From: a virus
Lineage: Duplodnaviria; Heunggongvirae; Uroviricota; Caudoviricetes
Strand: one strand, 5' to 3'
DNA: 64,000 nt
IMG/VR virus record: IMGVR_UViG_2579778660_000001
The position numbers were made by a program, and so were the translations under genes. Numbering within the stretch: the stretch's first letter is position 1; each line of letters starts with the position of its first letter. The notes under the pieces were generated by a model. That model ran no database searches, was not told the DNA's origin, and saw only the letters and a program-made list of their open reading frames with translations. Positions 1,770-55,100 of the stretch are shown here, in pieces.

Positions 1770-2807
1770 TTACCAGAGCTTTGCGGCGCGCTGCGTTTGG
1801 GGGAATGTGTATCCGTAACGTTCTTCGATTGCTTTGCCGTATTTTTTACGCGCTTCATTCAGTTTGATGCCGGTCAGGTCGTCTCCAGAGGCCATCATTA
1901 CGTCTAACAATTCCAGATCCATTTTATCCAGCCTTGCCATTGCTTCACGCGATGTACGAATCTTACGTTCAATGATATGGCGAATAGCCGGATCGGCATC
2001 CTCCAGCATCTTAGCTGATTTCTGCTTAAGGTTTTCGTTGCGGATATCGATGTTCCTTAAGATATACGACTTCGCAACGTAGCTTGGCTGATGTTTTTCC
2101 AGGTCACGAACACGATATAAGCTAAAGTCGCCGAGAAGGCTGCAAGGCACCGATTCGACGCCAGAATAAATTGTAATGCTACGGCGTTCACCAACATTAT
2201 TGACAACGGGGATCGTTGTCTTCGGTAGTTTTGCGAAAACGAATGCGCCATGTGCGCCAACTCTAAAGCGAGAAAGGGCATTGCTGCCTTCGATGTTTGT
2301 TGTCAGCACAACATCTGTATATGCCTCTTTACGCGCCCGGTAGACCTCGCCTTCAGGCTCAGCTTCAAAGAAGCGCTGTTCTTCTTCAAGAGCACCTACG
2401 ATTTGAGAAAAAACCCTATTTTTCAGGCTTTTCTTTATGATTTTGTCGTATTTTTTGAGCAATTGTTCACGTGTAAATGTACGTGTTGTTGTAGCGCTTT
2501 GCACAACAACATGCGTGCTTTGATTGGTGTCCTCAATGATGAATGGGATCGGAGAATATACAGACTCAACAATGTTAGACGCTTTGCCGTCAGCATTACG
2601 GCACAAGTCAACAAAGGCTTTCCATTCTGCGAGGCACTTTTCAGCTTCTTCTAGTACATTTTGGTCGTGTGTTAGTGCAACGTGGCGGAATTCCTCGCCA
2701 GCATAACTGGTATCATGGAAAACAGAGTTTGCGACCACCAGCTCTTTCCACCGTTCAGCGGTTTGCAGGAACCGTTTGTACTCTTTCTCGATCGACTTCT
2801 TACTCAT
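1770..2807 (-). CDS. hypothetical protein (345 aa), operator motif directly upstream; possible immunity/regulatory function
   Basis: Long ORF convergent with terL; TTTTCTAACAT operator copy 20 bp upstream of start; no recognisable catalytic motif. Confidence 0.6.
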   Translation of the reverse strand: MSKKSIEKEYKRFLQTAERWKELVVANSVFHDTSYAGEEFRHVALTHDQNVLEEAEKCLAEWKAFVDLCRNADGKASNIVESVYSPIPFIIEDTNQSTHVVVQSATTTRTFTREQLLKKYDKIIKKSLKNRVFSQIVGALEEEQRFFEAEPEGEVYRARKEAYTDVVLTTNIEGSNALSRFRVGAHGAFVFAKLPKTTIPVVNNVGERRSITIYSGVESVPCSLLGDFSLYRVRDLEKHQPSYVAKSYILRNIDIRNENLKQKSAKMLEDADPAIRHIIERKIRTSREAMARLDKMDLELLDVMMASGDDLTGIKLNEARKKYGKAIEERYGYTFPQTQRAAKLW

Positions 2808-2821
2808 TATTCCTACTCGAT

Positions 2822-2836
2822 TTAGTTTTCTAACAT
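2822..2836. promoter_or_regulatory. operator-like motif TTAGTTTTCTAACAT (copy 1)
   Basis: Same 15-mer recurs at 20805-20819; core TTTTCTAACAT recurs at 7 loci. Confidence 0.55.
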
Positions 2837-3204
2837 AAAATCCCTATGACAAATCTATGTCGAATAACAGAGTGAGTAAAGGATCGAACTATGATTTTTT
2901 TGTCATCAACTTTAGAAAACCAACCGTTGAAACCACACTTCGCAAATTAAAGACCATGAAGGCAACGTGTTACTGTCCATCATCAATCTATGATGGATTA
3001 CAAAAAAAATCGGCATTTTATAACTTTAAATAATGGGGATTATTTAAAGTTAGGCTATAATCATGTGTAGATGAACAGTATTGACATCACTGAAAATACG
3101 TGCCTCGAATCAAAGGCTTGTATTTTGAAAATTAACTTATAGCTACCCTGTCATTTTTATATTTTTCGCGTAGCGTCATATGTATATAGAGGCGAAATAG
3201 TTTC

Positions 3205-4233
3205 ATGGGAGAATTAATTATCTCTGGCAGTTCCGGTGGTTTTCTGCGCAACATTGGCAAAGAGTACCAGGAAGCCGCAGAAAACTTTATGCGGTTCATG
3301 AATGACCAGGGGGCTTATGCGCCGAATACTCTGCGCGACCTCCGGTTGGTGTTTCATTCCTGGGCGCGCTGGTGTCACGCTCGCCAGCTCGCCTGGTTCC
3401 CGATCTCACCAGAAATGGCCCGCGAGTATTTTCTTCAGCTGCATGATGCCGATCTGGCTTCGACCACCATTGATAAGCACTACGCCATGCTGAACATGCT
3501 GCTTTCGCATTGTGGCCTTCCGCCACTTTCGGATGATAAAAGTGTTTCTCTGGCTATGCGGCGCATCCGGCGCGAAGCGGCAACTGAAAAAGGCGAACGA
3601 ACAGGCCAGGCTATACCGCTGCGGTGGGACGATCTGAAACTGCTCGACGTCCTGTTGTCCAGGTCAGAACGGCTGGTGGACCTGCGCAACCGGGCTTTTC
3701 TCTTTGTTGCATACAATACGCTGATGCGTATGTCGGAAATCTCGCGTATTCGTGTAGGAGATCTGGACCAAACAGGTGACACTGTCACGCTACATATTTC
3801 ACACACGAAGACAATAACGACCGCCGCCGGGCTTGATAAGGTGCTTTCCCGTCGCACTACCGCTGTGCTGAATGACTGGCTGGATGTTTCCGGGCTTCGC
3901 GAACATCGTGACGCAGTGCTGTTCCCGCCGATACACCGTAGCAATAAGGCCAGGATCACGACAACGCCCCTTACTGCACCTGCAATGGAGAAAATATTCA
4001 GCGACGCCTGGGTGTTGCTGAATAAAAGAGATGCTACGCCAAACAAAGGGAGATACCGGACGTGGACCGGGCATAGTGCACGCGTCGGGGCCGCTATTGA
4101 TATGGCTGAAAAGCAGGTGTCTATGGTGGAGATCATGCAGGAAGGAACCTGGAAGAAACCGGAAACACTTATGCGGTATCTGCGCCGTGGCGGTGTGTCT
4201 GTGGGGGCTAATAGCCGCCTGATGGATTCGTAA
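3205..4233 (+). CDS. cre: Cre-type tyrosine site-specific recombinase
   Basis: 342 aa; similar along whole length to P1 Cre as recalled (e.g. LNMLLSHCGLPPLSDDKSVSLAMRRIRRE, NTLMRMSEISRIRVGDL, WTGHSARVGAAIDMA). Confidence 0.9.
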   Translation: MGELIISGSSGGFLRNIGKEYQEAAENFMRFMNDQGAYAPNTLRDLRLVFHSWARWCHARQLAWFPISPEMAREYFLQLHDADLASTTIDKHYAMLNMLLSHCGLPPLSDDKSVSLAMRRIRREAATEKGERTGQAIPLRWDDLKLLDVLLSRSERLVDLRNRAFLFVAYNTLMRMSEISRIRVGDLDQTGDTVTLHISHTKTITTAAGLDKVLSRRTTAVLNDWLDVSGLREHRDAVLFPPIHRSNKARITTTPLTAPAMEKIFSDAWVLLNKRDATPNKGRYRTWTGHSARVGAAIDMAEKQVSMVEIMQEGTWKKPETLMRYLRRGGVSVGANSRLMDS

Positions 4234-4237
4234 ATTA

Positions 4238-4250
4238 AATTTCTAACACA
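4238..4250. promoter_or_regulatory. operator-like motif variant AAATTTCTAACAC (copy 2)
   Basis: Between cre stop and the 4307 operon start; 9/11 match to core motif. Confidence 0.4.
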
Positions 4251-4306
4251 TCTTTTTAGATTAACGCCTTTGATGTAAAGTACCCTCGCCTATTTAGGAG
4301 GGTGCT

Positions 4307-4651
4307 TTGCAGAGTCAAATCACGGAATCAAGACGCTTCAAGGTGGATGGTTACACCGTAACCTTCGCTGCTGGTGTTAAGAACAGTCATGCTGTCGTTG
4401 TGTTCGGCATCATGACCGGGCTTGAGGCCGTCCCTGTGTTTACCCTCGAAAAAAACTGGCGAAATCTGGAGGAAGCAGAAAGCTACGTCCGGAAAGTAAC
4501 CATCATTGCCGCCGAAAAACTCCTGGCCCACTATCAGGAAAATTATCGCACTATGGTCGAGAAGATTAATCTCGCTTTCACTCGCCCCACTACCGGCTTT
4601 ATTGCACCGGATACTAATGCAGGTCGCTATCCTGCAAGGGGGCGTCGGTGA
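4307..4651 (+). CDS. hypothetical protein (114 aa)
   Basis: TTG start with AGGAGG RBS 5 nt upstream; first gene of operon. Confidence 0.55.
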   Translation: MQSQITESRRFKVDGYTVTFAAGVKNSHAVVVFGIMTGLEAVPVFTLEKNWRNLEEAESYVRKVTIIAAEKLLAHYQENYRTMVEKINLAFTRPTTGFIAPDTNAGRYPARGRR

Positions 4652-13933: not shown

Positions 13934-14120
13934 TATCTGCTCCTTCCGCTTTCTCTGCTTTATCCGCCATGATTTCCAGCTTTTGTGCTGCTGATGCCGC
14001 TAACATTTGAAATTCTTCATCTGTTTCAACTGGAATTGGTACAAACCTGACTCCAATTTGAGCAAGGCTATGCGCCATCTCTAGACTTGCTCTTAACTCT
14101 GCTGGTGAGGCTTTATTCAT
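13926..14120 (-). CDS. hypothetical protein (64 aa)
   Basis: GAAGGAGGAAG RBS upstream of ATG at 14120. Confidence 0.5.
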   Translation of the reverse strand: MNKASPAELRASLEMAHSLAQIGVRFVPIPVETDEEFQMLAASAAQKLEIMADKAEKAEGADSE

Positions 14121-14216
14121 TTGGCTTCCTCCTTCCGATACATCATGATTGCCAGACCTCCCTTTGTAGTAATGCGGATGGTGCTGCCTGGCTCCATGCT
14201 CATGCCTTTATCCCAA

Positions 14217-15212
14217 TCAGTTATTAAACGTGATTACTCCGCGCTCGATGGCGAAGTCAAAAAGCTGGTTAGCGGCTACGTAAAGGCGTATGCCATGTGC
14301 TTTTTCCCATGCCCGGACATCGTTTTCTGCGCTTCTGGCGCAGTCATCGCAAAGAGGAACAGCCCAGCGGTCGTGTTCGTTTAACGAGCGGGCGCGGTAC
14401 ATGAACGGGTGGTTAACTTTGCCACCGCATCCGATGCACGGACGAGAAACCACAAACCGGAGATAAGCCGGGCTTTTACCGAGGACCGCTTTTGGTCGGC
14501 GCATATAAAGCAGGCCGGAATCCTCATCTACAGACAGGTTGACGATCTGCTCTGCGGTTATGTCCACCAGCTCGCGGGTACTGTGCTCCCAGGTGATATC
14601 TGATTCTTTCAGCGTACCGGTAGGGATTTCAGTTTTTGGCTGACAAAATGCAATGCGACCGGCTTCATCTGGCAGCTCATCTTTCAGATTCCGGCGAATG
14701 GCCCAAAAAGTGAGTTCAACCATACTCAGATCGCGTTCTGGCGGTAGTTTTAACTCGCTCGCAGCCCAGTTCATAACCCAGTTGGCACGATTCAGGGATA
14801 ACTGGTCGTCCAGCTTGCTGTACCCCTTCATCATGTATTCCGCATCATGCTTCCAGCACAGGCGAACGGCAGAGCCGTTATAGAAATGAGTGGTTAGCTG
14901 GTGGCTGCAATCGCGCTTATCGTGCGCCTGGCAATCGTGGATATTGGAACTTACCCAATGAACAAGCGAATCTTCACCGCCCAACGCGTTAAATACGCGC
15001 TCGCTTTGAAAAAACGGTTTCAGAGACTGGTTGGCAACCAGCGAATAATTCAGATCCACTACGCCATCTGGAGTGTTTTCAGCCTGTTCACGCGGAAGTG
15101 GGGAGATAATGAAACGGCGACCTGCGCCAATGTAGTTACTGGTGGGCTTGTCTACCGGAAAGACAGCCACACCAGCTCCGTTTACGAAATGAGGTGTGAT
15201 TATTGCACTCAT
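14217..15212 (-). CDS. hypothetical protein (331 aa), DUF968-like Cys-rich C-terminus
   Basis: C-terminal CIGCGG...CDDCARS cluster. Confidence 0.55.
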   Translation of the reverse strand: MSAIITPHFVNGAGVAVFPVDKPTSNYIGAGRRFIISPLPREQAENTPDGVVDLNYSLVANQSLKPFFQSERVFNALGGEDSLVHWVSSNIHDCQAHDKRDCSHQLTTHFYNGSAVRLCWKHDAEYMMKGYSKLDDQLSLNRANWVMNWAASELKLPPERDLSMVELTFWAIRRNLKDELPDEAGRIAFCQPKTEIPTGTLKESDITWEHSTRELVDITAEQIVNLSVDEDSGLLYMRRPKAVLGKSPAYLRFVVSRPCIGCGGKVNHPFMYRARSLNEHDRWAVPLCDDCARSAENDVRAWEKAHGIRLYVAANQLFDFAIERGVITFNN

Positions 15213-15253
15213 AATGTATACCGACTCTGTTTTGTTCCGAGCGGTAAAATAAT

Positions 15254-15285
15254 ATGTTAGAAAACTAAAATCAACGTTCTAACGT
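15254..15285. promoter_or_regulatory. operator-like motifs (copy 3: ATGTTAGAAAA plus variant CGTTCTAACGT)
   Basis: Perfect reverse-complement of core motif at 15254-15264; second half-site 15275-15285. Confidence 0.5.
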
Positions 15286-15310
15286 AATTTTGAGTGCGTA
15301 AATGATTTGA

Positions 15311-16003
15311 TCAGACTTTAAGCTGCCCTCCCTTCACCTGCATTAGCGTCAGATTTCCGCAAAAAACCGCGCCCGTGTCTATGTAGTGCTGATTCCAGTA
15401 TGCTTTTGGTCTTCGTACCGGTGTGTGCCCAAAGATAAAGCGATCTGCGCCTGTGATTTCTCCACCAATGCCATCTATCGAATCACCGACGCGACTGCGC
15501 GACCAGACAACATCAAAAAGCGACACATCCTTACCGAACTGGTACTCTCCACCTGGATAGTCGGCATGGGCTATAACGATAGTTTCATGCCCGGTGTTCA
15601 GCTCAATGATATAGGGCAGACGCTTTACCAGCTCCACCAGCGCCCAGGCTAATATTTCCTGATCAGTGTCCAGCATGAAGAACCATTGTCCGCCATTCAT
15701 TAGCCAGTTATTCACGTTGCCATCAGGACTTAACGCATCAAGCATCAACCGCTCATGGTTCCCCATTACTGCCCTGAACCAGGGCATCTGCAATAGTTCC
15801 AGACATTCGACATTTTCAGTACCGCGATCGATAAGGTCGCCAACCGATATCAGTAAATCCTGCGCCGGGTCAAAATCCACACGATGGAGTTCGGACATCA
15901 GTCTGGTGTAGCAACCATGCAGATCACCAACAACCCATATGTTTCTATAGCCAGAACCATCAATACGGCTATATAAATTCACTTCATGCAGAGCCTGGGT
16001 CAT
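15311..16003 (-). CDS. Ser/Thr protein phosphatase (lambda-type calcineurin-like)
   Basis: GDLHGC, GDLIDRG, GNHE metallophosphoesterase motifs. Confidence 0.85.
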
Positions 16004-16311
16004 GCGGCAACCTTCTCACGCAGCCAGATACAAACCGGACCATCTTCAGTGTCATGAATAGAGCCAACAAACCAGCCTTCACCCTCTGGTCGCTCCGGTT
16101 CCCAGGCGGCAATATCGGGACCAGCTGCGTCCAGATCAAAATCATCTTCATCCATACTGCGAATAGTCCACTGAAGATTATTTTCCTTCATCCAGGCGTC
16201 AAATTCCTCAGTGGAAATATATTCACGGCCTGCGCAAAACTTTTCATACTCCGGATGTGTCCAGCAGCCATATTCATCACGTTCTACCGGCATTTCTTTA
16301 ATTGTGCTCAC
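16000..16311 (-). CDS. hypothetical protein (103 aa)
   Basis: 4-nt overlap coupling with neighbours. Confidence 0.5.
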
Positions 16312-16532
16312 TCTTCATCCTCCAAGTCGGCAACGGCCTCCATCACATCAGAACCGCGAATAAACTCAAAAGCACGGCAAGCCATTTCAAACACCTGTTG
16401 TTCTTGCGGATGCGGTGACTCCCAATACTTAAAACCAGGTCGATGCTCGTAACCCATCATGGAATAAAAATCGCCAGCAAGTTCAATCGCGGCATCAACA
16501 AGTTCGCGATTTGTCATCGTTTGTTCTGTCAT
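16308..16532 (-). CDS. hypothetical protein (74 aa)
   Basis: ORF in operon. Confidence 0.5.
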   Translation of the reverse strand: MTEQTMTNRELVDAAIELAGDFYSMMGYEHRPGFKYWESPHPQEQQVFEMACRAFEFIRGSDVMEAVADLEDEE

Positions 16533-16837
16533 TTTGTTTTCTCCTGTCTGAACATCACTATCATCAGGTCGCCTTTTGTCGCTATCCTCGCTGTTGTGCC
16601 TGGTTCAATGCTGCCAAGTTCAAATGCGTCATAGAACGCTTCTAATGCCTTCTGGCGTAGTTCCTGTTTGCGCCGTTTTTTCCACTGTTTCAGGAAAATG
16701 GAACCCAGCCATCGCCATGTACGGGACATGATGAAAAACCAACCGAGAAGTGCCAGACCGGTATTCAGGAGCGTATCGATCGTTATTGTCGTGTCGATAT
16801 TCACTGGCTGCTTCCGTTGCGAATCTGTTCCGCCCAT
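16529..16837 (-). CDS. hypothetical membrane protein (102 aa)
   Basis: One TM segment (LLNTGLALLGWFFIM) then basic stretch. Confidence 0.45.
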   Translation of the reverse strand: MGGTDSQRKQPVNIDTTITIDTLLNTGLALLGWFFIMSRTWRWLGSIFLKQWKKRRKQELRQKALEAFYDAFELGSIEPGTTARIATKGDLMIVMFRQEKTK

Positions 16838-17733
16838 TCTTCAAGGGATTTCTCCGCATATTCACCGGACAGGCCATCAAGCGGATGCGGTTCATTAGCC
16901 AACTCTTCTTTCGCTGACAAAATCATGCGTGTAACGTCGAAAACTTCACGCAAAGACTTATTGATAAATCCGTGATTGAACGCAGCAGCAAGACGGCTTG
17001 CGGTGTAGTTAATCCCCTCGTTGCGTGCCTCCGCACGTACTTCAGCCAGGAAAGCGTCGGTTGCTGGGGTGTCGATATTAGGCAGAAGCGCATAATCGCA
17101 AATCGTATCGATCGCAGGATCACAACAGTCATCCTCGTTGCGTGGTCGTTCGCCAACCTTCGTTGACGATTGCATGATGATTCCCCAGCAAATACTATCG
17201 ACCTCTTCGCTCCATCCATCGCAAGCATCACCGCGATAGTCGTCGATTGCAGCCTCAGCCGATTCGATAGCTTCCTCAGCAGTTTTGTGCCATTCGAAAT
17301 TATGCTCAGAGCCATATGAGAAATATGAATGTCCCGCCTTCAGCCCCGCATTCTCCGCCGCCAGCGCCGCGCAATTACCCTCCAGCTCTGCAATGCGCTG
17401 TTTTGCGGCATCAAGTTCAATCGATAATTTTTCCAACTGCTCTTTATGCTTCTTGTATTCCTGATATGCGTGCCAGGACTGACCTTTGCGCACACTATCA
17501 GTAATATCAGTAATCTGTTCTGGTGTTAGCGTGGTCAGTGGCTGTGCTGGGAAAATCAGCACTTTCCCGGAATCCCAATCAAAACCAGCGTGAATTGACT
17601 GAACCTCAACTGAAGGTGTTGAACCAATGCTGCCAGGCGAATGAACAACGATCGTTACATCCATATCGCGACGATGGCTGTGGTTGTTGGACAAAATACG
17701 ATTCACCAACTCAGAAAATTTGGAAAATTTCAT
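16801..17733 (-). CDS. hypothetical protein (310 aa); C-terminal domain paralogous to 18537-19046 product
   Basis: ATG at 17733 overlaps upstream stop (ATGA); shared [11 protein letters not shown]...[10 protein letters not shown] domain. Confidence 0.55.
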
Positions 17734-18053
17734 GCTGATTCCCTTTGATCTTCCTGGATAATGTTGTTGCAATCTTTCACGCACTCGTTGCAGATGAAAG
17801 CGTTGTCCCCAGCAATTAACTTTTTAACGGTGTGCTGGGATTTGTTGCAGAAGCTGCAATAAAGCGTTGGACTGGCTGATACGGATGGTGCGCCAGATGT
17901 CAGCCGCGCGATGTCGTTCTTGCGACGCAATATCACACGGCTGCACTCAACCAGCATCTCCGGGGATATACCCTCCTCCGTGGCGAGCGCCTCCAGACGT
18001 TCGAGCAAGCGAAATACTTTTTCCTGGGTGATTGCATAATGCGATGTGGTCAT
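17730..18053 (-). CDS. ClpX N-terminal zinc-binding-domain-like protein (no AAA+ module)
   Basis: [39 protein letters not shown] vs ClpX ZBD (LYCSFCGKSQHEVRKLIAG...ICDECV, as recalled); ATG at 18053. Confidence 0.65.
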
Positions 18054-18054
18054 C

Positions 18055-18540
18055 TCACTCTCCTTTGATGCGAATGCCTGTTGCAATGCTGTTTATGATG
18101 CTGTCAGTGCATGGGGTAGAAAGCTGGGCATCTCCAGCAATTTTCATGACATCAACATCTGCATATCGAATACCGAGGTGTATCAGACCGGCTATACCTG
18201 ACTTAAGCCGAGCATTTTCCATAAACAGATCCTTTGCCCGCTGTTTTTCTGCCTCAAGCTCAACGCGCAACTTCCCTACCGTTAGCGCAATATCCTCGTT
18301 CTCCTGGTCGCGGCGTTTGATGTACTGCTGGTTTCTTTCCCGTTCATCCAGTAGTGCCAGCACGGTTTCTGGTCCGGCCAGAAATTTGAAGGCGTTGAGC
18401 GCATCAATATCCACACCGTAATCTTTAAGTTCCTGTTCACTTAACAAATCATCATCAGCTGGCAACATTAACAGGCGTTCCATTGCTGGAATTGCACGTT
18501 CCGCCGCCTCACGCAGTGCCTGATAATCAATCTTGCTCAT
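18055..18540 (-). CDS. Ea22-like protein (161 aa)
   Basis: Ends ...[10 protein letters not shown]; conserved 24-bp junction sequence at 3' end. Confidence 0.6.
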
Positions 18541-19046
18541 TGGATGACTCCTTTACGAAGCTGTTCGGCGATATCTTCGAGAACGCCATCAGAGAATGAG
18601 CGGTCAAAATCGCCTTCCGGCGCATTAGCCATAAACTCAGTAGAGGTAAGAATCATCCGGGCAATATCCGCGGCGTTCTTCGCAGTATCATCAATAAAAC
18701 CAGCTACCCAGGCAGCCAGCATTCTGTTCGCCACAAAGTAAGCGCCCTCCTTGCGTGCTTCAGTCTTCACTTCATCCAGGAAAGTGTCGGTCGCAGGAGT
18801 AGTTTTTTGTGGTGATAGGGCGATACGAATTGTTTCAAGAGCTGGATCTATTTCCACTGTTGGCACCTTGATAAAACCAAGCTGCACGCCATTCATAATG
18901 AACGTGCGGCGATCCTCACATATCGCCTTCAGTCTCGCATTCTCCGCAGCCAGCGCCGCGCGCTCTTTCTCAAGTCGGGAAATTTCCGTTACATACTCAG
19001 CGTTACGCTCTGCCAGTTGTGCGGGCGTTAAACCTTCAGACTTCAT
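18537..19046 (-). CDS. hypothetical protein (169 aa), paralogue of 16801-17733 C-terminal domain
   Basis: Shared C-terminal domain; N-terminal coiled coil. Confidence 0.55.
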   Translation of the reverse strand: MKSEGLTPAQLAERNAEYVTEISRLEKERAALAAENARLKAICEDRRTFIMNGVQLGFIKVPTVEIDPALETIRIALSPQKTTPATDTFLDEVKTEARKEGAYFVANRMLAAWVAGFIDDTAKNAADIARMILTSTEFMANAPEGDFDRSFSDGVLEDIAEQLRKGVIQ

Positions 19047-19353
19047 ACACTCTCCTTTCGAAATAAACGTACTGATTAATCATGCCCAGGGGCATTTCGA
19101 GTTTTTCTGCGATCTCACGGCGGGGAACACCACACCGATGAAGCTGCCGTGCCAGTTCTATATCGCCCTGCCGGTATTTGGCTGACGGGTGAAAGTCTCC
19201 TTTCAGAATCATGCAGATCCGCAGTTGCCGCGCTTTGGTTCTGACAGCACTACCGGTACGCCCGATCAGCCTCCCAATACTCTCGACTGTCATAGTCCCG
19301 GCGCACTGGCGGAGTATCATGATTTCTGCCCTTCCCCATCCCCGCCAGCTCAC
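19036..19353 (-). CDS. putative HTH DNA-binding protein (105 aa)
   Basis: Helix-turn-helix-like ARQLHRCGVPRREIAEKLEMPLGMINQYV. Confidence 0.5.
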   Translation of the reverse strand: MSWRGWGRAEIMILRQCAGTMTVESIGRLIGRTGSAVRTKARQLRICMILKGDFHPSAKYRQGDIELARQLHRCGVPRREIAEKLEMPLGMINQYVYFERRVYEV

Positions 19354-19959
19354 ACAGAACTCCTTCTAACCAAAAGAACGCCATCTTCAGAAACAACGTT
19401 GCAGGACTTCAGGTAATTCATTGCCTCTTTCGGTAATGGATTCTTTGGATCGGCGTTTGCCAGGGATTTCGATAACCTCATGATAAATTTGATCATTACC
19501 TTCTGGCGGAGCTTGTGCTCATGAGATAAAGACAGGTAATAGGAAATGGTATGGGCTAAACGCTCACGAAGCTGTTCTGTGCCGTGATATACAGCAGCGA
19601 TATCACGCAGTGCATTGACCAGTTCCCGGTAAATATGCGGAGCAACCTGGCATTCAATGTTGGTTGGTGACTCATAAATTACATTCAGCCCCAGCTTTTT
19701 AGCCAGCTCGTGCTCTGCACGAGCGCCAACTGATTCCTCCCACCCCTTGAGCAAATAGACCGCATTAGCCGAACGCACCATTGCAAGGCAAATATCCATG
19801 TATTCGCTCTGGCAGAGGCCAGCAGGTAACAGCGCCGGATTCATAACAATATGCCCTACCTCCATCAGCTCTTTTGCTTTCGAAAAAAACGCTGTGCGGT
19901 TGTAGTCGGGATAACCAGTCATCGGACCCGCGATGTAAATTTTCATAATGCGTTTTGAC
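19350..19959 (-). CDS. DUF4406 (nucleoside 2-deoxyribosyltransferase-like) protein
   Basis: N-terminal IYIAGPMTGYPDYNRTAF; ATG at 19959 overlapping upstream stop (TGATG); track start 19988 is upstream. Confidence 0.6.
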
Positions 19960-19960
19960 A

Positions 19961-20116
19961 TCAAAGTTTCCCCAGGAACGTTACGCAAAAGTTGATGAGA
20001 GCAAAGAGTTCAATGCCCAGCTCAAACAACGCCAGGACAGTGAAAAACAGGACATATAGCAACCCAATTTCTGTATCGGATTGCTGGTGGATTGCACTAA
20101 TTGCGACAAGCATCAT
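19961..20116 (-). CDS. small hydrophobic membrane peptide (51 aa), first gene of leftward operon
   Basis: MMLVAISAIHQQSDTEIGLLYVLFFTVLALFELGIELFALINFCVTFLGKL; stop overlaps next ATG. Confidence 0.4.
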   Translation of the reverse strand: MMLVAISAIHQQSDTEIGLLYVLFFTVLALFELGIELFALINFCVTFLGKL

Positions 20117-20157
20117 GACCTCCTGATATAGCGTCTGAAAAAAGTATCTTCATTTTG

Positions 20158-20187
20158 TGTTAGAAAATCAATTTTGATTTTCTAACA
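20158..20187. promoter_or_regulatory. 30-bp perfect palindromic operator between divergent operons
   Basis: TGTTAGAAAATCAATTTTGATTTTCTAACA, two inverted copies of core motif. Confidence 0.65.
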
Positions 20188-20190
20188 TGT

Positions 20191-20808
20191 TTGATCAACC
20201 ATAGCGGCTATGTAGACAAACCGGGTATTTCTATGAAGCAAAGCTATTGGGAGAAACAGACACAAAAAGCCCTGCAAAAACTGGCTGATCCGAAATGGCG
20301 GGAGGAACAAAGGGCAAAGCGTCTTCAGCAAGCTCAACGCCAGCAGCAGCGTGCGCGAGAAAAAGCCGCATCGCCTGAATATCGGCAAAAGAAAATTGAA
20401 AAAGCGAAGCAATATGAACAGCGAAGAAAAGAGAAGGCCGCTTCTGCTCCTGTCAAAAAAACTCGCGCGTCACGCGGCCTGAAAGGCAGAACACTCACAG
20501 CAGATGAGCGCCGGATACAAACTGCCATCGGTGCTCTCCCCTGCATTGCCTGCCATATGCACGGACAGCATAGCCCTGTGGTATCCCTGCACCACATCTT
20601 CGGAAGAACAGCAGAGAACGCGCATAAATACGTCCTCCCTTTGTGTAAATGGCACCATCAACACGCAGCGCCAGCAGAGATCCGCGAGCAATACCCCTGG
20701 TTGGTTCCTGTTCATGCTGATGGAAAAATAGGCGGTAAAGCAGATTTCAGGCGGCACAATGCTGATGAAATGACGTTGTATCAGATGGCGATTGAATTGA
20801 CGAATTAG
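20191..20808 (+). CDS. ref: Ref-like HNH endonuclease (recombination enhancement function)
   Basis: Basic low-complexity N-terminus then Cys/His HNH core (CIACHMHGQHSP...LCKWHHQH); likely ATG at 20233. Confidence 0.65.
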   Translation: MINHSGYVDKPGISMKQSYWEKQTQKALQKLADPKWREEQRAKRLQQAQRQQQRAREKAASPEYRQKKIEKAKQYEQRRKEKAASAPVKKTRASRGLKGRTLTADERRIQTAIGALPCIACHMHGQHSPVVSLHHIFGRTAENAHKYVLPLCKWHHQHAAPAEIREQYPWLVPVHADGKIGGKADFRRHNADEMTLYQMAIELTN

Positions 20809-20819
20809 TTTTCTAACAT
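20805..20819. promoter_or_regulatory. operator-like motif TTAGTTTTCTAACAT (copy 5)
   Basis: Identical 15-mer to copy 1; overlaps ref stop codon. Confidence 0.55.
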
Positions 20820-20822
20820 TTT

Positions 20823-21139
20823 AAGTTGAATTATAAATTTCTCCGATGTACATTCACTACCGATTGGCACACCGGTCAACTTTTTGAGACAAACTGTATA
20901 GTTTTTCGTATTATTGCCGCCGCCATACCTATGGCGGTGCAATATAGGTGGCTGAAAAGCCCCCGTTGACTCACGGTGTTCCAGCCTTTATTGCGCCGCC
21001 ACCAGACCGTGGAACAGTCGATGGCGGCTCCGAAAGCAAGGAGTCACTACACTATGAACAGCTACTGTCTTTTCCCGTCACTCGTTGTCCGCCACTCACG
21101 CGATAATCTGCATTCTTTACTCGCGCTGGGGGTGTCAAA
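20823..21139 (+). ncRNA. candidate structured regulatory RNA region (antisense-type), speculative
   Basis: No ORF; paired hairpins CCGCCATacctATGGCGG and GCCGCCA-N19-TGGCGGC with shared 7-nt words; follows an operator. Confidence 0.2.
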
Positions 21140-21307
21140 ATGACCGTTCGCTACCTCAACTTTCAAATCCAGAACATCACTGGCGGTTGCTATGACTGGT
21201 TTGTCACTCTCGGAAAAGAAGTGATCACCGGGAAGCTGGATGAAGTGAAAGCTAAAGCAATGGCCTACGCCTGCAAGCAAGCCCGGAAGAAATCCGCCAA
21301 AGCATAA
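21140..21307 (+). CDS. small protein (55 aa), candidate
   Basis: ATG after GGGGG; MTVRYLNFQIQNITGGCYDWFVTLGKEVITGKLDEVKAKAMAYACKQARKKSAKA. Confidence 0.3.
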   Translation: MTVRYLNFQIQNITGGCYDWFVTLGKEVITGKLDEVKAKAMAYACKQARKKSAKA

Positions 21308-21694
21308 AATACTGACTTTTGCGCCCTGGCATTATCGTGGGGTATATTTCTACGGCACCTTAGAAAAACGGGTGCCGGGATTGGAACCTCACGCGGTAGC
21401 TCCTTAACTTAGTCAAAGGAGGCTGCCAATATCGCTACTATCCCCACCCCAACTCATTCTGAATTTATCTGGCGTTTCTATTCCTGCCAAAAACACCTGT
21501 ATATCTGCGTCATGGCTGCAACCGAAGCAGAAGCTCGTTCATACCTTCCCCTGGCGGAACGGGGCGTAATTGGTGATAAACAGATACTGGGAAACAGTGG
21601 AACTACATGAGGCGGGAGTAATTCGTGACCTGATGGAGAATTCCGTTCCCCGCCGCTATCGTGCAGGGAACGGCATCTCCGTGGTTAAAGGTGT

Positions 21695-22087
21695 TTAAAG
21701 CTCACCTGCGCGCTGTTTTTCAAGCACAGATTTAACATTTGGCGCTTTCCCTTTAAAAGAATGGAAAGTGCCACATTTTTCTGTTTTAACCTCGCGCAGA
21801 GCTTCGCCGTCGGCGTTCTGCCATTGATGGGATAATGTCATATCACCGCGAGAAGGAACATCCAGCGAGTACAGCGTGTAAGTTCCCCCCATCTCCGCAT
21901 ACTCCTGGAACACATAGCTCATTACGTCAGATTCAGTTTTTCGGTGTGCGTTATCAACCTTATTCCCATTCAGAAATATGGCATCTGGATAGATTTTTAT
22001 ATCAAACCGACCGCACTTAACTTGTAAATCTCCGGCGCTCGCGATCAAAGGGAAAGACGCCAGTAAAGCAATAGCCAATCTTTTCAA
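21695..22087 (-). CDS. exported protein with signal peptide (130 aa)
   Basis: N-terminal MKRLAIALLASFPLIASA signal sequence. Confidence 0.6.
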   Translation of the reverse strand: MKRLAIALLASFPLIASAGDLQVKCGRFDIKIYPDAIFLNGNKVDNAHRKTESDVMSYVFQEYAEMGGTYTLYSLDVPSRGDMTLSHQWQNADGEALREVKTEKCGTFHSFKGKAPNVKSVLEKQRAGEL

Positions 22088-22731: not shown

Positions 22732-22935
22732 GCAAACAAAATGAAGTTTTATGTTATAAAAACAATTAACTACATAAACATGATTTAGGCCAAATTTCGG
22801 TTAAAAAATAAAATCCACCAAAAGTGGTTGACACTATTTTGGAAATCACAAACTGCACATAATCCATCGCGCTAACGGCTCCCGTTGAAGGTTCTTTTGA
22901 CGATTAACTTTCAGCCGAAGCGCGGTAGGGAGTCA

Positions 22936-23788: not shown

Positions 23789-23886
23789 GTCATTCACTCC
23801 GTTTAATTTTTAATCTAATGCCAGCAAATGAAGCTGGCCCCCGCATAAAGATTAATGAAAGTCACTTGTCACCAGTGAGGGGATTT

Positions 23887-30602: not shown

Positions 30603-30616
30603 AAAATGCACCCATT

Positions 30617-30649
30617 TGTGTTAGATAATTAACGCGTATTTTCTAACAT
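30617..30649. promoter_or_regulatory. operator-like motif pair (copy 6)
   Basis: TGTGTTAGATAA (variant, inverted) and TATTTTCTAACAT directly upstream of rdgC. Confidence 0.5.
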
Positions 30650-30661
30650 AAATGGTGAGAA

Positions 30662-41240: not shown

Positions 41241-41253
41241 AACTCTAATGTTT

Positions 41254-41266
41254 TGTGTTAGAAAAT
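41254..41266. promoter_or_regulatory. operator-like motif TGTGTTAGAAAAT (copy 7)
   Basis: Shares TTTTGTGTTAGAAAAT with left arm of the 20158 palindrome. Confidence 0.5.
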
Positions 41267-41398
41267 TAAAATTAAAACACATAACAACATGACTGTTAAT
41301 AGATTTTATTTTACTAAAACTATTGACTAAATCACAAAGTAGGTATTGTTAGCCCGTCAAAAGAACCTTCACGCCGCGCCCGAATTTAGGGCTTAACC

Positions 41399-49654: not shown

Positions 49655-49772
49655 TGAGGGCAATTTTTACACCACTTTGAGGGCAATTACTACACCTTTT
49701 GAGGGCAAATCTTACACCTTCTGAGGGCAAATCTTACACCGATCGTATTTAATTGAGGGCAAATCTTACACC
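49655..49772. repeat. origin iterons, 5 direct repeats TGAGGGCAA(A/T)TNTTACACC
   Basis: Copies at 49655, 49678, 49700, 49722, 49754 (22-23 bp phasing); inverted degenerate copy at 49895-49914. Confidence 0.75.
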
Positions 49773-53800: not shown

Positions 53801-55100
53801 TTCCGAAAAAGCGAAAGGAATGGATCAGGCTCTTACTGAAAAGATATCCGGCTTAACCGGTAAATCTTTTGGATTTAAAAAAGCTTCTCAAGTGGCTGAT
53901 ATCGCAACAGCCATACAACAAAAACGCACTGTTAATCACGATACAGAAATCATTGATCTACTTCCGGGAGATCAAGTATCCCCTTTTACTCCGAAAACCC
54001 CACAGCAGGAGCAGGCTATAGCAATCAGCCAGGCTATGGCGGGCTTTTCGTCTGCAGCGCCAGCACCGAAAACCCCACAGCAGGAGCAGGCTATAGCAAT
54101 CAGCCAGGCTATGGAGGGCTTTTCGTCTGTAGCGCCAGCACCGAAAACCCCACAGCAGGAGCTGGCTCTAGCAATCAACCAGGCTATGGCGGGCTTTTCG
54201 TCTGCAGCGCCAGCACCGAAAACCCCACAGCAGGAGCAGGCTATAGCAATCAGCCAGGCTATGGAGGGCTTTTCGTCTGCAGCACCAGCACCGAAAACCC
54301 CACAGCAGGAGCAGGCTCTAGCAATCAACCAGGCTATGGCGGGCTTTTCATCTGCAGCACCAGCACCGAAAACCCCACAGCAGGAGCAGGCTCTAGCAAT
54401 CAACCAGGCTATGGCGGGAGCTGCGCCAGTAGTTACCTCTGGAAAACGAACTGTCACGGCACCAAGTGATGTGCAGATTTATGACAACGGCTACAAGGTG
54501 GTTACAGGTGAGGATAAGAGCTTCTTTGGTTCGCTATTTGATTCCACGGTGTCAGGGCTTAAACAGGCAGCAACCGCAGTAATTCCTGCCGTTGGCGATA
54601 ACCTTTCACGACTTGTTGGGGGGATTGATAGTACAGGGATATTGAACGATCTTGTAATGCAGTCTACTGGGCAGAATAGTGCGATTGCGCGAGCTATTAG
54701 CCCATTAACAAGAAATGTTGGAGACTGGCTGAATGGGGGGATTCAACAAACCGCTAATAGCATTAGGGGAATAGCAACTGGTGCCAATAACGCCATATTT
54801 GGCTCTGCTTCAGCTGTGCAAGAACCTTTTCTTGCTATGCCGCCACAACTCCCTACTGTAACCGATCTCGCACGAAGCGGAATAAGACAACCATTAACTA
54901 CTGACACTATAAATAACGATCCTGCTATGTTGAAGGCGCTGGATAACATCTGCTCTATCCTGAACGATCTGCTGAATGTGAACAAGAACAATACAAAAGG
55001 CGATCCGGATAATGTTGTCAAAACATCGCAGCCGCAGCCGCGACCACGTGCGAGCGCAACTATTAATGACCAGTCGCTGGATGCTCTGCTTGAGGATTAA
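50895..55100 (+). CDS. giant Sit/tape-measure-like protein with internal tandem repeats
   Basis: 1401 aa; Ala/Gly/Lys-rich helical N-part; central conserved region (NRNYRNNNLGNL...ATKEGGNP); six 25-aa repeats. Confidence 0.7.
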   Translation: MASTPYVKSPGRKIQSSSRETLIAAGKREVILKENKDRIAIIDAIQGASTNELNALAEIKDAILSGRGSITQLGENQGKVSQRLSRRLIASEPYVSDDAKNTQANPYIKRLPMKKGRTQINNGEERLIVATNTSERVHFSSSRQSAQKLKGSVPVAANSAPLEPQSPQSQKGPLRDSNGRFVSQKNNEDIARKKEWQKARKADAKLQEGFLRKLGSIIGVDGNQSSSEESLTDAAGVGAGGPLWMAARGMYDITKEITGKAVSLKEWVEKGKGEASPSKATSPAIAYPAVVNTQKATSATAFNNAVETKSAQAVEEQTKILQTNDNKIIDGLENVSDEVVKLRKSVSSGNKFGLSDLWKNRASRRNKINIGDQAGKNKRNKPKRKGRNLGKKALSVGEKAAAGTAAAGAGAVAAKTVKTKVSKAKDISTTSDASKGIAKETKNTTKAVKSAGVVAEEATIKTGETVAKKKTESLALKSAAKIGVKSAASTAARAIPIIGSVAMAGYDAIDGYTDTDAQKAAFGLSDDDAVSEQQKTAYATANVLDMGGLVSGATNLIGKGISALGFERAGEKLQDFDTGDIARGVNGAVDITKSVFGSLKDTFLSTDENTKQVKKAVEDGTKKTVDAIHSLGEQLQGGRNGEDGVGEHGYTSPTEFSAPANNTIAADLNIGGSNAKNRNYRNNNLGNLVFANQEGATLESPNAKGEQRFARFNTPEEGIRALANQVSSYYNGTSAAAGYQKLQTVSSIISKWAPPNENNTNQYIDNVSKYLGVSPNEKIDVSKPEVMTQLVRAIATKEGGNPAVNNEFIKNALGAFNTNTGRWEGQFSDETLARINKIQKENGGQLIARDSQYSVGRKVKYANGKSPAQPVLNAVPTATQQPIEVAQHAQAVKKPQKTGNQPQPINPENADVNTGSPSSLLERLIAINESGISGASNLFGGAATSLAGTSLDLVKDFALATSFGSISSLSEKAKGMDQALTEKISGLTGKSFGFKKASQVADIATAIQQKRTVNHDTEIIDLLPGDQVSPFTPKTPQQEQAIAISQAMAGFSSAAPAPKTPQQEQAIAISQAMEGFSSVAPAPKTPQQELALAINQAMAGFSSAAPAPKTPQQEQAIAISQAMEGFSSAAPAPKTPQQEQALAINQAMAGFSSAAPAPKTPQQEQALAINQAMAGAAPVVTSGKRTVTAPSDVQIYDNGYKVVTGEDKSFFGSLFDSTVSGLKQAATAVIPAVGDNLSRLVGGIDSTGILNDLVMQSTGQNSAIARAISPLTRNVGDWLNGGIQQTANSIRGIATGANNAIFGSASAVQEPFLAMPPQLPTVTDLARSGIRQPLTTDTINNDPAMLKALDNICSILNDLLNVNKNNTKGDPDNVVKTSQPQPRPRASATINDQSLDALLED
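53991..54425 (+). repeat. 75-bp tandem repeat, about 5.8 copies, in frame
   Basis: Unit CCGAAAACCCCACAGCAGGAGCAGGCT...; encodes PKTPQQEQAIAISQAMAGFSSAAPA. Confidence 0.85.

What the first reader, a model, noticed from the sequence alone, without database searches (positions are those of the whole stretch)
20158..20187. Dispersed operator regulon: TTTTCTAACAT at seven operon boundaries, including a 30-bp perfect palindrome
The same 11-15-bp motif occurs at 2822-2836, 4238-4250, 15254-15285, 20158-20187, 20805-20819, 30617-30649 and 41254-41266, always intergenic and at operon starts (hypothetical 345-aa gene, post-cre operon, ref, rdgC-dmt, leftward early operon). This mirrors the scattered C1 operators of P1 but with a different sequence, implying a master repressor of different specificity; the repressor gene itself is not identified.
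Basis: seen in the sequence. Interest (0 to 1): 0.6.

Follow-up and report, generated by a model that had tools for sequence, protein, structure and literature searches.

The report
Operator set of D6-type C1 repressor
The repeated TTTTCTAACAT motif is real and is most likely the set of binding sites through which this D6-like plasmid prophage's own master repressor (a distant relative of phage P1's C1, encoded by the 345-aa gene in the window) keeps its lytic genes off: the same design as in P1, with a different recognition sequence.

Summary
TTTTCTAACAT (up to 1 mismatch) occurs 10 times against 1.8 expected. A 25-bp matrix finds 8 strong hits against 0.005 in shuffles. All credible copies lie between genes, at seven loci. 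The "30-bp perfect palindrome" is really two 14-bp arms around a 2-nt centre.

The window is a relative of phage D6, a P1-like plasmid prophage. The unidentified repressor is in the window. The 345-aa ORF at 1770-2807(-) is 97% identical to the annotated D6 c1 gene and is a remote homologue of P1 C1 (hhalign 97.5%).

The sites sit where P1 has curated C1 operators:
- upstream of c1
- upstream of ref
- at the ref stop, upstream of a c4-like RNA
- upstream of hrdC-dmt

In D6 itself, sites also lie upstream of lpa and at pmgR/pmgS.

The motif shares the TCTAA core with the P1 operator, but the P1 consensus is absent from the window. Plasmids whose C1 is about 70% identical keep the motif. Plasmids whose C1 is about 30% identical have a different TCTAA-containing motif at the same places.

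The differences from P1 are a different paired-site geometry (cores 21 bp apart, facing outward) and no detectable Lxc or Coi.

C1 binding and promoter overlap are inferred, not shown. This is an ordinary but unannotated member of a known kind of system. One side lead: the predicted C1 fold resembles the replication terminator protein Tus.

The parts
1770..2807 (-). c1: D6-type C1 prophage repressor (345 aa), the proposed binder of the motif
   Evidence: 97.4% identical to the annotated c1 / 'prophage repressor' of phage D6. Remote homologue of P1 C1: BLASTP 20% identity over 242 aa, E = 5e-8; NCBIfam phage_rep_C1 25 bits, E = 1e-5, far below the 500-bit equivalog cut-off; hhalign probability 97.5%, E = 8.6e-12.
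2818..2842 (+). Operator upstream of c1 (core TTTTCTAACAT at 2826-2836), 18 nt before the c1 ATG at 2807. Proposed autoregulatory site and counterpart of P1 Oc1.
   Evidence: Matrix score 32.5. It is a conserved island in the alignment with D6, pK91 and pEF-4, whose C1 proteins are only 68-71% identical. A conserved candidate promoter, TTTACT (2880-2875) - 17 nt - TAGATT (2857-2852), would place it at about +3 to +20 (inferred).
2912..2919 (-). Conserved TTTTCTAA half-motif further upstream of c1, pointing the same way as c1. Possible weak second site.
   Evidence: Invariant block in the four-genome alignment. D6 matrix score is only 8.8. Not counted as an operator.
4231..4255 (+). Single operator at the dre stop codon (core ATTTCTAACAC at 4239-4249), upstream of the rightward operon that starts at about 4307
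   Evidence: Matrix score 15. ATTAAATTTCTAACAC is invariant in the window, D6, pEF-4 and pK91 while the flanks diverge. P1 has no counterpart.
15248..15291 (.). Paired operator between ppp (15311-16003, -) and the DUF968/pdcB-like gene (14217-15212, -). Cores at 15254-15264(-) and 15275-15285(+).
   Evidence: Matrix scores 32.0 and 8.9. Conserved in D6 (80702-80745). pEF-4 has a single hit (score 25.8) at the same junction; a second copy there did not reach the score threshold of 12. TTAGA and TCTAA cores are 21 bp apart.
20151..20194 (.). It lies between the leftward DUF4406 operon and rightward ref, and is the counterpart of P1 Oref.
   Evidence: Matrix scores 33.0 and 30.4. 28 of 30 positions are symmetric. 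The inverted repeat is conserved in D6 (left arm degenerate there) and in pEF-4. P1 Oref lies between the -35 and -10 of P2ref.
20801..20825 (+). Single operator across the ref stop codon (core at 20809-20819), upstream of the c4-like RNA. Counterpart of P1 Omat (same position at the ref stop) and of P1 Oc4 (same downstream target).
   Evidence: Matrix score 28.7. Conserved in D6 at 75973-75997. P1 Omat also straddles the ref stop, and P1 Oc4 precedes c4.
20927..21006 (+). c4-like antisense RNA gene (remnant of an immI region), the likely target of the operator at 20801-20825
   Evidence: Rfam RF01695 C4, 40.2 bits (gathering score 45), E = 1.3e-5, full-length match. Fragment of an icd homologue at 21452-21550.
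30612..30655 (.). Paired operator directly upstream of rdgC/hrdC (ATG at 30662) and dmt. Cores at 30618-30628(-) and 30639-30649(+). Counterpart of P1 Odmt.
   Evidence: Matrix scores 22.5 and 24.9. Conserved with the same geometry in D6 at 64109-64152. P1 Odmt precedes uhr-hrdC-dmt. Candidate -10 GATAAT at 30624-30629 lies inside the left copy (inferred).
41249..41273 (-). Single operator (core at 41255-41265) between the leftward orf52-like gene and the rightward major capsid gene (41399-)
   Evidence: Matrix score 32.7. Conserved in D6 at 54200-54224. P1 has no annotated operator here.
22745..22816 (-). Two weak motif-like sequences lacking the TCTAAC core (22745-22769 and 22792-22816), in the gap between the simB-like gene and mat. 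Doubtful.
   Evidence: Matrix scores 10.2 and 11.8. Similar weak hits at the same place in D6. Not counted.
41302..41326 (+). Weak motif-like sequence facing the capsid gene. Doubtful.
   Evidence: Matrix score 11.8. Not counted.

Best explanation
The motif is the operator of this prophage's own C1-type master repressor, the 345-aa product of c1 at 1770-2807(-).

Proposed mechanism, by analogy with P1: C1 recognises an asymmetric site of about 17 bp, 5'-(A/T)(A/G)TTTTCTAACA(T/C)AAA-3'. The window carries 10 credible copies at seven loci: four single sites and three pairs. Bound C1 blocks RNA polymerase at early promoters. The proposed targets are:
- c1 itself (autoregulation)
- the operon after dre
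- the pdcB-like operon
- ref and the divergent DUF4406 operon
- the c4 / immI region
- hrdC-dmt
- orf52
- outside the window, in D6: lpa, pmgR/pmgS and the icd-ant / repL region

This would keep the plasmid prophage quiescent and give immunity to superinfection that is distinct from P1 immunity.

Shown here: the sites, their enrichment, their placement between genes, their conservation, the homology of the repressor to P1 C1, and the parallel with the P1 regulon.

Inferred: that C1 is the protein that binds, that it binds as a monomer per copy, and that each site overlaps a promoter.
For: 1. Enrichment and strictly intergenic placement.

2. The repressor gene is present and is homologous to P1 C1. 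The strongest site lies 18 nt upstream of its start codon.

3. Positions correspond to operators curated in the P1 record: Oc1, Oref, Omat (which also straddles the ref stop), Oc4, Odmt, Olpa and OpmgRa/b. A c4-like RNA lies about 100 bp downstream of the ref-stop site.

4. The motif aligns without gaps to the P1 consensus in the same orientation: 9 of 17 positions match, including the TCTAA core, and matrix comparison gives p of about 0.04. As in P1, the site usually points the same way as the gene downstream. The P1 consensus itself is absent from the window.

5. The motif changes when C1 changes:
- Plasmids with C1 68-71% identical (pK91, pEF-4) keep the motif. pK91 has it upstream of c1 and at the dre stop. 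pEF-4 has it upstream of c1 and ref, at the ppp/DUF968 junction and near pmgS/R, and at the dre stop.
- Plasmids with C1 29-31% identical have no matrix hit. Instead they carry their own repeated intergenic motif with a TCTAA core: TAGATTCTAAGG in Leclercia and AATCTAAGG in Pantoea. Both have it upstream of c1; in Pantoea it is also upstream of lpa.

6. Conservation: the operators stand out as conserved islands in otherwise diverged intergenic alignments.

7. All three pairs in the window have identical spacing, with TTAGA and TCTAA cores 21 bp apart. So do the two D6 pairs (hrdC and ppp/pdcB) and the pEF-4 pair upstream of ref, whose matrix hits show the same 19-bp offset.

8. The AlphaFold model of C1 matches only Tus, a monomer that binds an asymmetric site. 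This fits the asymmetric operator, but it is a lead only.
Against: - No binding data exist for any D6-type C1.
- Sigma-70 promoter scans found no convincing promoter overlapping most sites. The tool's scan found none in 2700-4400 and one non-overlapping match in 19950-21100. My relaxed scan gave only 8-9 of 12 matches. Promoter occlusion is therefore an assumption.
- Homology to P1 C1 is remote: 20% identity, and 25 bits against a 500-bit family cut-off.
- Similarity between the two operator matrices is only marginally significant (p of about 0.04).
- The change of motif with C1 rests on a few lineages in which many other genes also differ, so another lineage-specific protein is not formally excluded.
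- The site upstream of c1 points away from c1, unlike most other sites.
Confidence: 0.85

Rival explanations
1. The motif is bound by a different regulator, not C1. Candidates are another phage-encoded DNA-binding protein (an HTH 'transcriptional regulator' like D6 orf72, or an Ant/Rha-type protein) or a host nucleoid protein that prefers AT-rich DNA.
For: No binding data tie C1 to the sites. D6-like genomes encode other predicted regulators. The lineages with a different motif differ in many genes, not only c1.
Against: The motif shares its core, orientation and genomic positions with experimentally defined P1 C1 operators. The best site abuts c1 itself, and it is still there in pK91, a hybrid plasmid in which the D6-like genes listed around c1 form only a short segment (hot, humD, phd/doc, dut, dre, c1) among conjugation and resistance genes. 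Host-factor sites would not change with the phage lineage.
Confidence: 0.06
2. The motif is mainly a promoter element. TAACAT would act as a -10 hexamer and, in the pairs, TTAGAA as a -35 hexamer 17 nt away. The repeat would then reflect a shared early-promoter consensus rather than a repressor site.
For: In all three pairs, TTAGA(A/T) - 17 nt - TAAC(A/G)T has sigma-70 spacing in both directions. Relaxed scans pick TAGAAA-16-TAACAT at ref and TTGAAT-16-TAACAT before c4. The sites point toward the gene downstream.
Against: The hexamers are poor (3/6 and 4/6). At rdgC the TAACAT ends only 12 nt before the ATG, too close for a -10 followed by a leader with a ribosome-binding site. The conserved block is about 15 bp of contiguous sequence, not two hexamers. 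Lineages with a different C1 carry TCTAAGG, which is not -10-like. The two readings are not exclusive: P1 operators also overlap promoter hexamers.
Confidence: 0.05
3. Chance recurrence of an AT-rich word in AT-rich intergenic DNA, or a remnant of a small dispersed repeat with no function.
For: Intergenic DNA here is AT-rich, and two of the ten 1-mismatch hits are indeed chance hits in coding DNA.
Against: Shuffles that preserve local composition give 0.005 strong hits against 8 observed. The sites are conserved as islands across diverged genomes. The spacing within pairs is identical at three loci.
Confidence: 0.01

Closest known systems
Phage P1/P7 ImmC system: C1 repressor with its dispersed 17-bp asymmetric operators (consensus ATTGCTCTAATAAATTT; 22 sites according to PMC8546580; about 20 are annotated in NC_005856)
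   Same: - Homologous repressor, encoded next to the terminase genes and the lox/rox recombinase.
- Many single and paired asymmetric operators scattered over a plasmid prophage of about 90 kb, between genes.
- Same target genes: c1, ref, c4/immI and hrdC-dmt, plus lpa and pmgR/S in D6.
- Shared TCTAA core, and sites pointing the same way as the regulated gene.
   Different: - The recognition sequence differs in both flanks (TTTTCTAACAT against TTGCTCTAATAAA). There is no P1-type site in the window.
- C1 is 345 aa against 283 aa and only about 20% identical, with a helical extension of about 100 aa at the C terminus.
- P1 pairs are two 17-mers that converge and overlap by 6 bp, with cores 13 bp apart. 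Here the copies face outward with cores 21 bp apart.
- No detectable Lxc corepressor, Coi or ImcA/B in the window or in D6 (absence of Lxc is also stated in PMC6799933).
- Extra sites with no P1 counterpart at the dre stop and between orf52 and the capsid gene.
Phage D6 (NC_050154 / MF356679; immC region AY753669) and D6-like plasmid prophages such as pYU39_89
   Same: The window is 92-98% identical to D6 over the shared parts. c1, dre and all operator loci are conserved.
   Different: - The D6 GenBank records annotate c1 but no operators.
- In D6 the left arm of the pair upstream of ref is degenerate.
- The window lacks the icd-ant genes that follow c4 in D6.
- The spacer of its rox-like site differs from D6.
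- Whether the D6 genome paper (Gilcrease & Casjens 2018) lists the operators could not be checked.
C1-family repressors of more distant P1/D6-like plasmids (Leclercia pE1_003, Pantoea pPA-MXU-90)
   Same: Same family (29-31% identical C1), same position of the gene next to the recombinase, and repeated intergenic sites with a TCTAA core. Both have a site upstream of c1, and Pantoea also has one upstream of lpa.
   Different: The flanks differ (TAGATTCTAAGG and AATCTAAGG). The Pantoea pairs use the P1-like converging geometry with cores 13 bp apart, not the D6-type 21 bp.
Tus-Ter (E. coli replication terminator protein bound to its asymmetric 23-bp site). Structural analogy only.
   Different: There is no sequence similarity (hhalign probability 0.2%). 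TM-scores are low (0.33-0.38). The functions differ: fork arrest against transcriptional repression. The model rests on an alignment of 10 sequences.

Membership tests
P1-type C1 repressor / operator immunity system (ImmC) | Repressor homologous to P1 C1 | tested here: met
   BLASTP E = 5e-8, 20% identity. hhalign probability 97.5%, E = 8.6e-12 over residues 7-243. NCBIfam phage_rep_C1 E = 1e-5. The homology is remote: 25 bits against the 500-bit equivalog cut-off, so it is not an equivalog of P1 C1.
P1-type C1 repressor / operator immunity system (ImmC) | Many asymmetric operators of about 17 bp dispersed over the genome, between genes and at operon starts | tested here: met
   10 credible copies at 7 loci in the window, and at least 13 strong sites in the whole D6 genome, all intergenic.
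P1-type C1 repressor / operator immunity system (ImmC) | Operator sequence matches the P1/P7 consensus ATTGCTCTAATAAATTT (same immunity specificity) | tested here: not met
   0 matches at up to 3 mismatches in the window. Only 9 of 17 positions are shared with the new consensus. This indicates a different specificity class.
P1-type C1 repressor / operator immunity system (ImmC) | Operator(s) at the repressor's own gene (autoregulation) | tested here: met
   A site at 2818-2842 lies 18 nt upstream of the c1 ATG and is conserved in four genomes. The regulation itself is not tested.
P1-type C1 repressor / operator immunity system (ImmC) | Operators control the same early functions (ref, c4-icd-ant, kilA-repL, dmt, lpa, pmgR/S ...) | tested here: met
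   Positional counterparts exist for Oref, Omat/Oc4 and Odmt in the window, and for Olpa, OpmgR and Oc4 in D6. The repL counterpart is only weak.
P1-type C1 repressor / operator immunity system (ImmC) | Paired operators are 28-bp overlapping inverted 17-mers | tested here: not met
   In all three pairs in the window the copies face outward, with TCTAA cores 21 bp apart and no overlap. P1 Oc1ab and Obanab are 28-bp overlapping pairs.
P1-type C1 repressor / operator immunity system (ImmC) | Accessory proteins Lxc (corepressor) and Coi (antirepressor) | tested here: not met
   tblastn with P1 Lxc, Coi, ImcA and ImcB finds nothing at E < 0.5 in the window or in D6. Analogues too diverged to detect cannot be excluded.
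P1-type C1 repressor / operator immunity system (ImmC) | C1 protein physically binds the sites and represses transcription | not testable with these tools
   Needs EMSA or footprinting, ChIP, or reporter assays.
Tus-like DNA-binding fold (for the C1 protein) | Two-domain alpha/beta architecture with interdomain beta-strands in a DNA-binding cleft, detectable by structure comparison | tested here: inconclusive
   [not shown]

The most novel reading that the evidence does not exclude
C1-family prophage repressors (P1, D6-type, and the Pantoea/Leclercia type) are Tus-fold proteins that clamp an asymmetric operator as monomers. On this reading they all read a common TCTAA core, while lineage-specific flanks set the immunity specificity. 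This gives at least three natural, mutually exclusive repressor/operator sets. The D6-type lineage has in addition evolved a distinct paired-site geometry two helical turns apart. Its helical C-terminal extension of about 100 aa might mediate this, and it works without Lxc or Coi.
Probability: 0.3. Interest if true: 0.6.

Novelty: new member of a known kind. Interest (0 to 1): 0.35.

Why it matters
It completes the immunity circuit of D6-like plasmid prophages, which are common in E. coli and Salmonella: 149 PLSDB plasmids encode this C1 family. It names the repressor, its operator sequence and its likely regulon, none of which is annotated in the public D6 records.

Together with P1 and the Pantoea/Leclercia type, it provides natural repressor/operator specificity variants built on a shared TCTAA core. 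These are useful for three things:
- working out how C1 reads DNA
- predicting which P1-like elements are immune to one another, including those that carry resistance genes
- building repressor/operator pairs that do not cross-react

The concept itself, a dispersed C1 regulon, has been known from P1 for decades, so the finding is confirmatory rather than surprising.

Tried and rejected
- Literature. The D6 genome paper (PMC5800970, PubMed id and DOI), Sauer & McDermott 2004 (PMC534624 and DOI) and Lobocka 2004 (PMC523184) are not held. Full-text searches for the motif, for 'phage D6' with 'C1 repressor', and for 'D6-like' with operator found nothing relevant. I therefore cannot exclude that the sites have been described in print.
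- Pfam (local copy) gives no family for C1, and PHROGs gives only an unnamed family.
- tblastn of the window's C1 against all phage records finds only D6 at E <= 1e-3. Pairwise and profile methods were needed to see P1 C1.
- Promoter scans with the consensus tool and with a relaxed script did not give convincing promoters at most sites. Promoter overlap stays inferred.
- Rfam at gathering thresholds found nothing in the window. C4 RNA appears only in the E-value search, below its gathering score.
- P1-type late-promoter boxes (AAGTKACTW) are not enriched: 1 hit against 1.4 expected. The motif is therefore not the late-promoter element, and D6-type late promoters remain undefined.
- An IHF-site reading of the palindrome centre was checked by eye and rejected, because it does not fit WATCAANNNNTTR.
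- PDB sequence search with the C1 profile gave no hit. The afdb50 library was unavailable. The viral structure library gave no significant match. hhalign of the C1 profile against E. coli Tus was negative.
- Weak matrix hits at 22745-22816 and 41302-41326 were considered and not counted, because they lack the TCTAAC core.

Full report
**The observation**

The sequence at 20158-20187 is TGTTAGAAAATCAATTTTGATTTTCTAACA. It consists of two perfect 14-bp inverted arms (20158-20171 and 20174-20187) around a non-symmetric TT. That makes 28 of 30 positions symmetric, so it is not a perfect palindrome.

The motif is enriched:
- TTTTCTAACAT with up to one mismatch occurs 10 times in the window. Dinucleotide shuffles give 1.78, and none of 100 shuffles reaches 10.
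- A 25-bp matrix built from the seven best copies recovers them plus the weaker partners at 4231-4255, 15267-15291 and 30612-30636. It gives 8 hits at score >=20 against 0.005 in block shuffles. The matrix was built from 7 of these sites, so this test is partly circular.
- Two of the ten 1-mismatch hits (12041, 26246) lie in coding DNA. They are the chance hits that the shuffles predict.

The credible copies are all between genes:
- With a deliberately generous ORF map (10.8% non-ORF), 7 of 8 TTCTAACA lie outside ORFs (p = 1.3e-6). The eighth lies in a 5' ORF extension that is not part of the gene annotated in D6.
- In the annotated D6 genome, 11 of 12 copies centre in the 10.2% of DNA that is intergenic (p = 1.4e-10).

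**What the window is, and where the repressor is**

The window is a relative of Escherichia phage D6, a P1-like plasmid prophage, and of many E. coli and Salmonella plasmids of about 90 kb.

- The 345-aa ORF at 1770-2807(-) is 97.4% identical to the gene annotated 'c1, phage repressor protein, similar to the C1 repressor of phage P1' in AY753669, and 'prophage repressor' in MF356679/NC_050154.
- The neighbouring 'cre' is the D6-type recombinase Dre.
- Homology to P1 C1 is remote but real: BLASTP 20% identity over 242 residues, E = 5e-8; NCBIfam phage_rep_C1 at 25 bits, E = 1e-5, far below the 500-bit equivalog cut-off; and profile comparison at 97.5% probability, E = 8.6e-12, over residues 7-243.

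**Parallel with the P1 regulon**

The P1 reference record carries curated C1 operators: Oref, Omat, Ossb, Oc4, OrepL, Orlf, Odmt, Obanab, O26, Oppp, OpmgRa/b, OpmgT, Olpa and Oc1a-e. PMC8546580 states that C1 binds 22 dispersed operators with the asymmetric 17-bp consensus ATTGCTCTAATAAATTT, helped by the corepressor Lxc and opposed by Coi and Ant.

| Window site | Position | P1 counterpart |
|---|---|---|
| 2818-2842 | 18 nt upstream of c1 | Oc1 |
| 20151-20194 | upstream of ref | Oref |
| 20801-20825 | straddles the ref stop codon, as P1 Omat does | Omat / Oc4 |
| 30612-30655 | directly upstream of rdgC/hrdC-dmt | Odmt |

The site at the ref stop lies about 100 bp upstream of a full-length match to the C4 antisense RNA family. 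That match scores 40.2 bits against a gathering score of 45, E = 1.3e-5, so this site is also the counterpart of Oc4.

Scanning the whole D6 genome adds sites in the part of the genome outside the window:
- upstream of lpa (counterpart of Olpa)
- between and after pmgR/pmgS (counterparts of OpmgR and OpmgT)
- upstream of the other icd-ant operon
- a weak site upstream of repL

Two window sites have no P1 counterpart: the one at the dre stop (4231-4255) and the one between orf52 and the capsid gene (41249-41273).

**The motif compared with the P1 operator**

The P1 consensus is absent from the window (0 hits at up to 3 mismatches). The new consensus, AATTTTCTAACACAATA by majority rule, aligns to ATTGCTCTAATAAATTT without gaps and in the same orientation. 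Nine of 17 positions match for the best site, including the core TCTAA. A matrix comparison finds this same alignment as the best one, with a column-permutation p of about 0.04, which is suggestive only. As in P1, the sites mostly point the same way as the gene downstream.

**The motif changes when C1 changes**

Among the 149 PLSDB plasmids that encode this C1 family:

| Plasmid | C1 identity to window | Result |
|---|---|---|
| S. Typhi pK91 | 68% | Same motif upstream of c1 and at the dre stop |
| E. fergusonii pEF-4 | 70.6% | Same motif upstream of c1 and ref, at the dre stop, at the ppp/DUF968 junction and near pmgS/R |
| Leclercia pE1_003 | 31% | No matrix hit; own motif TAGATTCTAAGG, five intergenic copies, one upstream of c1 |
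| Pantoea pPA-MXU-90 | 29% | No matrix hit; own motif AATCTAAGG upstream of c1 and of lpa, plus two pairs |

All specificity classes keep TCTAA. In four-genome alignments, the operators upstream of c1 and at the dre stop stand out as conserved islands in diverged intergenic DNA. So does the inverted repeat upstream of ref in the three-genome alignment.

**Architecture, and differences from P1**

- The window has four single sites and three pairs.
- In all three pairs the copies face outward, with TTAGA and TCTAA cores exactly 21 bp apart, about two helical turns. The D6 pairs at hrdC and ppp/pdcB and the pEF-4 pair upstream of ref show the same offset.
- P1 pairs (Oc1ab, Obanab) and the Pantoea pairs are converging 17-mers that overlap by 6 bp, with cores 13 bp apart.
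- D6-type C1 is about 60 residues longer than P1 C1. The AlphaFold model places a long helical hairpin (residues 241-307) in the extra C-terminal part. This could mediate pairing, but that is speculation.
- No homologue of Lxc, Coi, ImcA/B, Ant1 or KilA is detectable in the window or in D6. PMC6799933 also notes that Lxc is absent.

**Mechanism: what is shown and what is inferred**

Shown: the sites, their statistics, their conservation, the homology of the repressor, and the correspondence with the P1 regulon.

Inferred: that C1 binds one copy per monomer and blocks RNA polymerase.

Promoter evidence is weak. The consensus scan found nothing convincing. Three candidates emerged:
- A conserved TTTACT - 17 nt - TA(G/A)ATT upstream of c1, which would place the operator at about +3 to +20.
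- GATAAT inside the left copy of the hrdC pair.
- Before c4, a weak promoter overlapping the operator plus a stronger one at 20884-20914, which recalls P1's P51a/P51b pair.

In the pairs, TTAGAA - 17 nt - TAACAT also has promoter-like spacing. Operator and promoter elements may therefore be the same sequences. This does not conflict with repression.

**Rivals**

- A different regulator binding the sites (about 0.06). The parallel with P1 and the site at c1 itself argue against it.
- A pure promoter element (about 0.05). The contiguous conserved block of about 15 bp, the position 12 nt before the rdgC ATG, and the TCTAAGG variants that are not -10-like argue against it.
- Chance (about 0.01). 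Shuffles, conservation and the fixed spacing argue against it.

**Side lead on the protein**

Tus binds an asymmetric site as a monomer, which fits the asymmetric C1 operators. However, TM-scores are low (0.33-0.38), there is no sequence signal, and the viral structure library gave nothing. I found no paper linking C1 and Tus. This is a lead, not a result.

**Novelty and verdict**

The kind of system is classical: the P1 ImmC regulon. D6 c1 is already annotated. The operators are not annotated in the D6 records, and I found no searchable paper that describes them. The two primary D6 papers could not be read, so prior description cannot be excluded.

I file this as a new member of a known kind, with variant features: a different specificity, a different pair geometry, and no Lxc or Coi. 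Confidence that these are C1 operators is 0.85. Interest is 0.35.

Noticed in passing
[not shown]
   Followed up: partly
window 3021-3052: The rox-like site has the same 14-bp arms as the D6 rox site but a different 4-bp spacer: TAACTTTAAATAAT-GGGG-ATTATTTAAAGTTA, against TGGC in D6. By analogy with lox spacer variants, it may not recombine with canonical rox.
   Followed up: no
window 20927-21006 (+) and 21452-21550 (+): A c4-like antisense RNA (Rfam C4, 40 bits, just below the gathering score) is followed only by a 33-aa fragment of icd, with no ant gene. This immI-like copy looks truncated compared with D6, which has icd-ant here.
   Followed up: partly
whole window, e.g. 352, 1639, 2735 ... 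51609: The Chi sequence GCTGGTGG occurs 36 times against 1.8 expected, on both strands. P1 is also reported to be Chi-rich (from memory).
   Followed up: no
window 49655-49740: A 22-bp tandem repeat of 3.9 copies (TGAGGGCAAATCTTACACCTTT), iteron-like. It is probably the plasmid replication origin or copy-control region.
   Followed up: no
window 53991-54418; 58943-59749; 60461-60766; 62053-62578: Long in-frame-looking tandem repeats (75-bp, 222-bp and 120-bp units), probably inside tape-measure/injection and tail-fibre genes. They account for the most frequent 10- and 11-mers in the window.
   Followed up: no
L010 (Pantoea pPA-MXU-90) 30378/30391 and 31778/31791; L008 (Leclercia pE1_003) 8085, 9144, 9477, 19211, 24324: Distant relatives of C1 (29-31% identity) have their own intergenic TCTAAG(G) motif sets. 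The Pantoea pairs use the P1-like 13-bp converging geometry, so the 21-bp outward-facing geometry seems specific to the D6-type lineage.
   Followed up: partly
window, whole (one hit at 23859-23867): The P1 late-promoter '-22 box' (AAGTKACTW) is not enriched: 1 hit against 1.4 expected. The late promoters recognised by the D6-type Lpa must have a different, still undefined, sequence.
   Followed up: no
L007 (S. Typhi plasmid pK91, NZ_CP029871) 14036-21893: A conjugative IncFIB multidrug-resistance plasmid carries a remnant of a D6-like prophage (hot, humD, phd/doc, dut, dre, c1 and a truncated terminase cut by IS26). Its c1 is intact and the operator upstream of c1 is present, so it might still confer D6-type immunity.
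   Followed up: no
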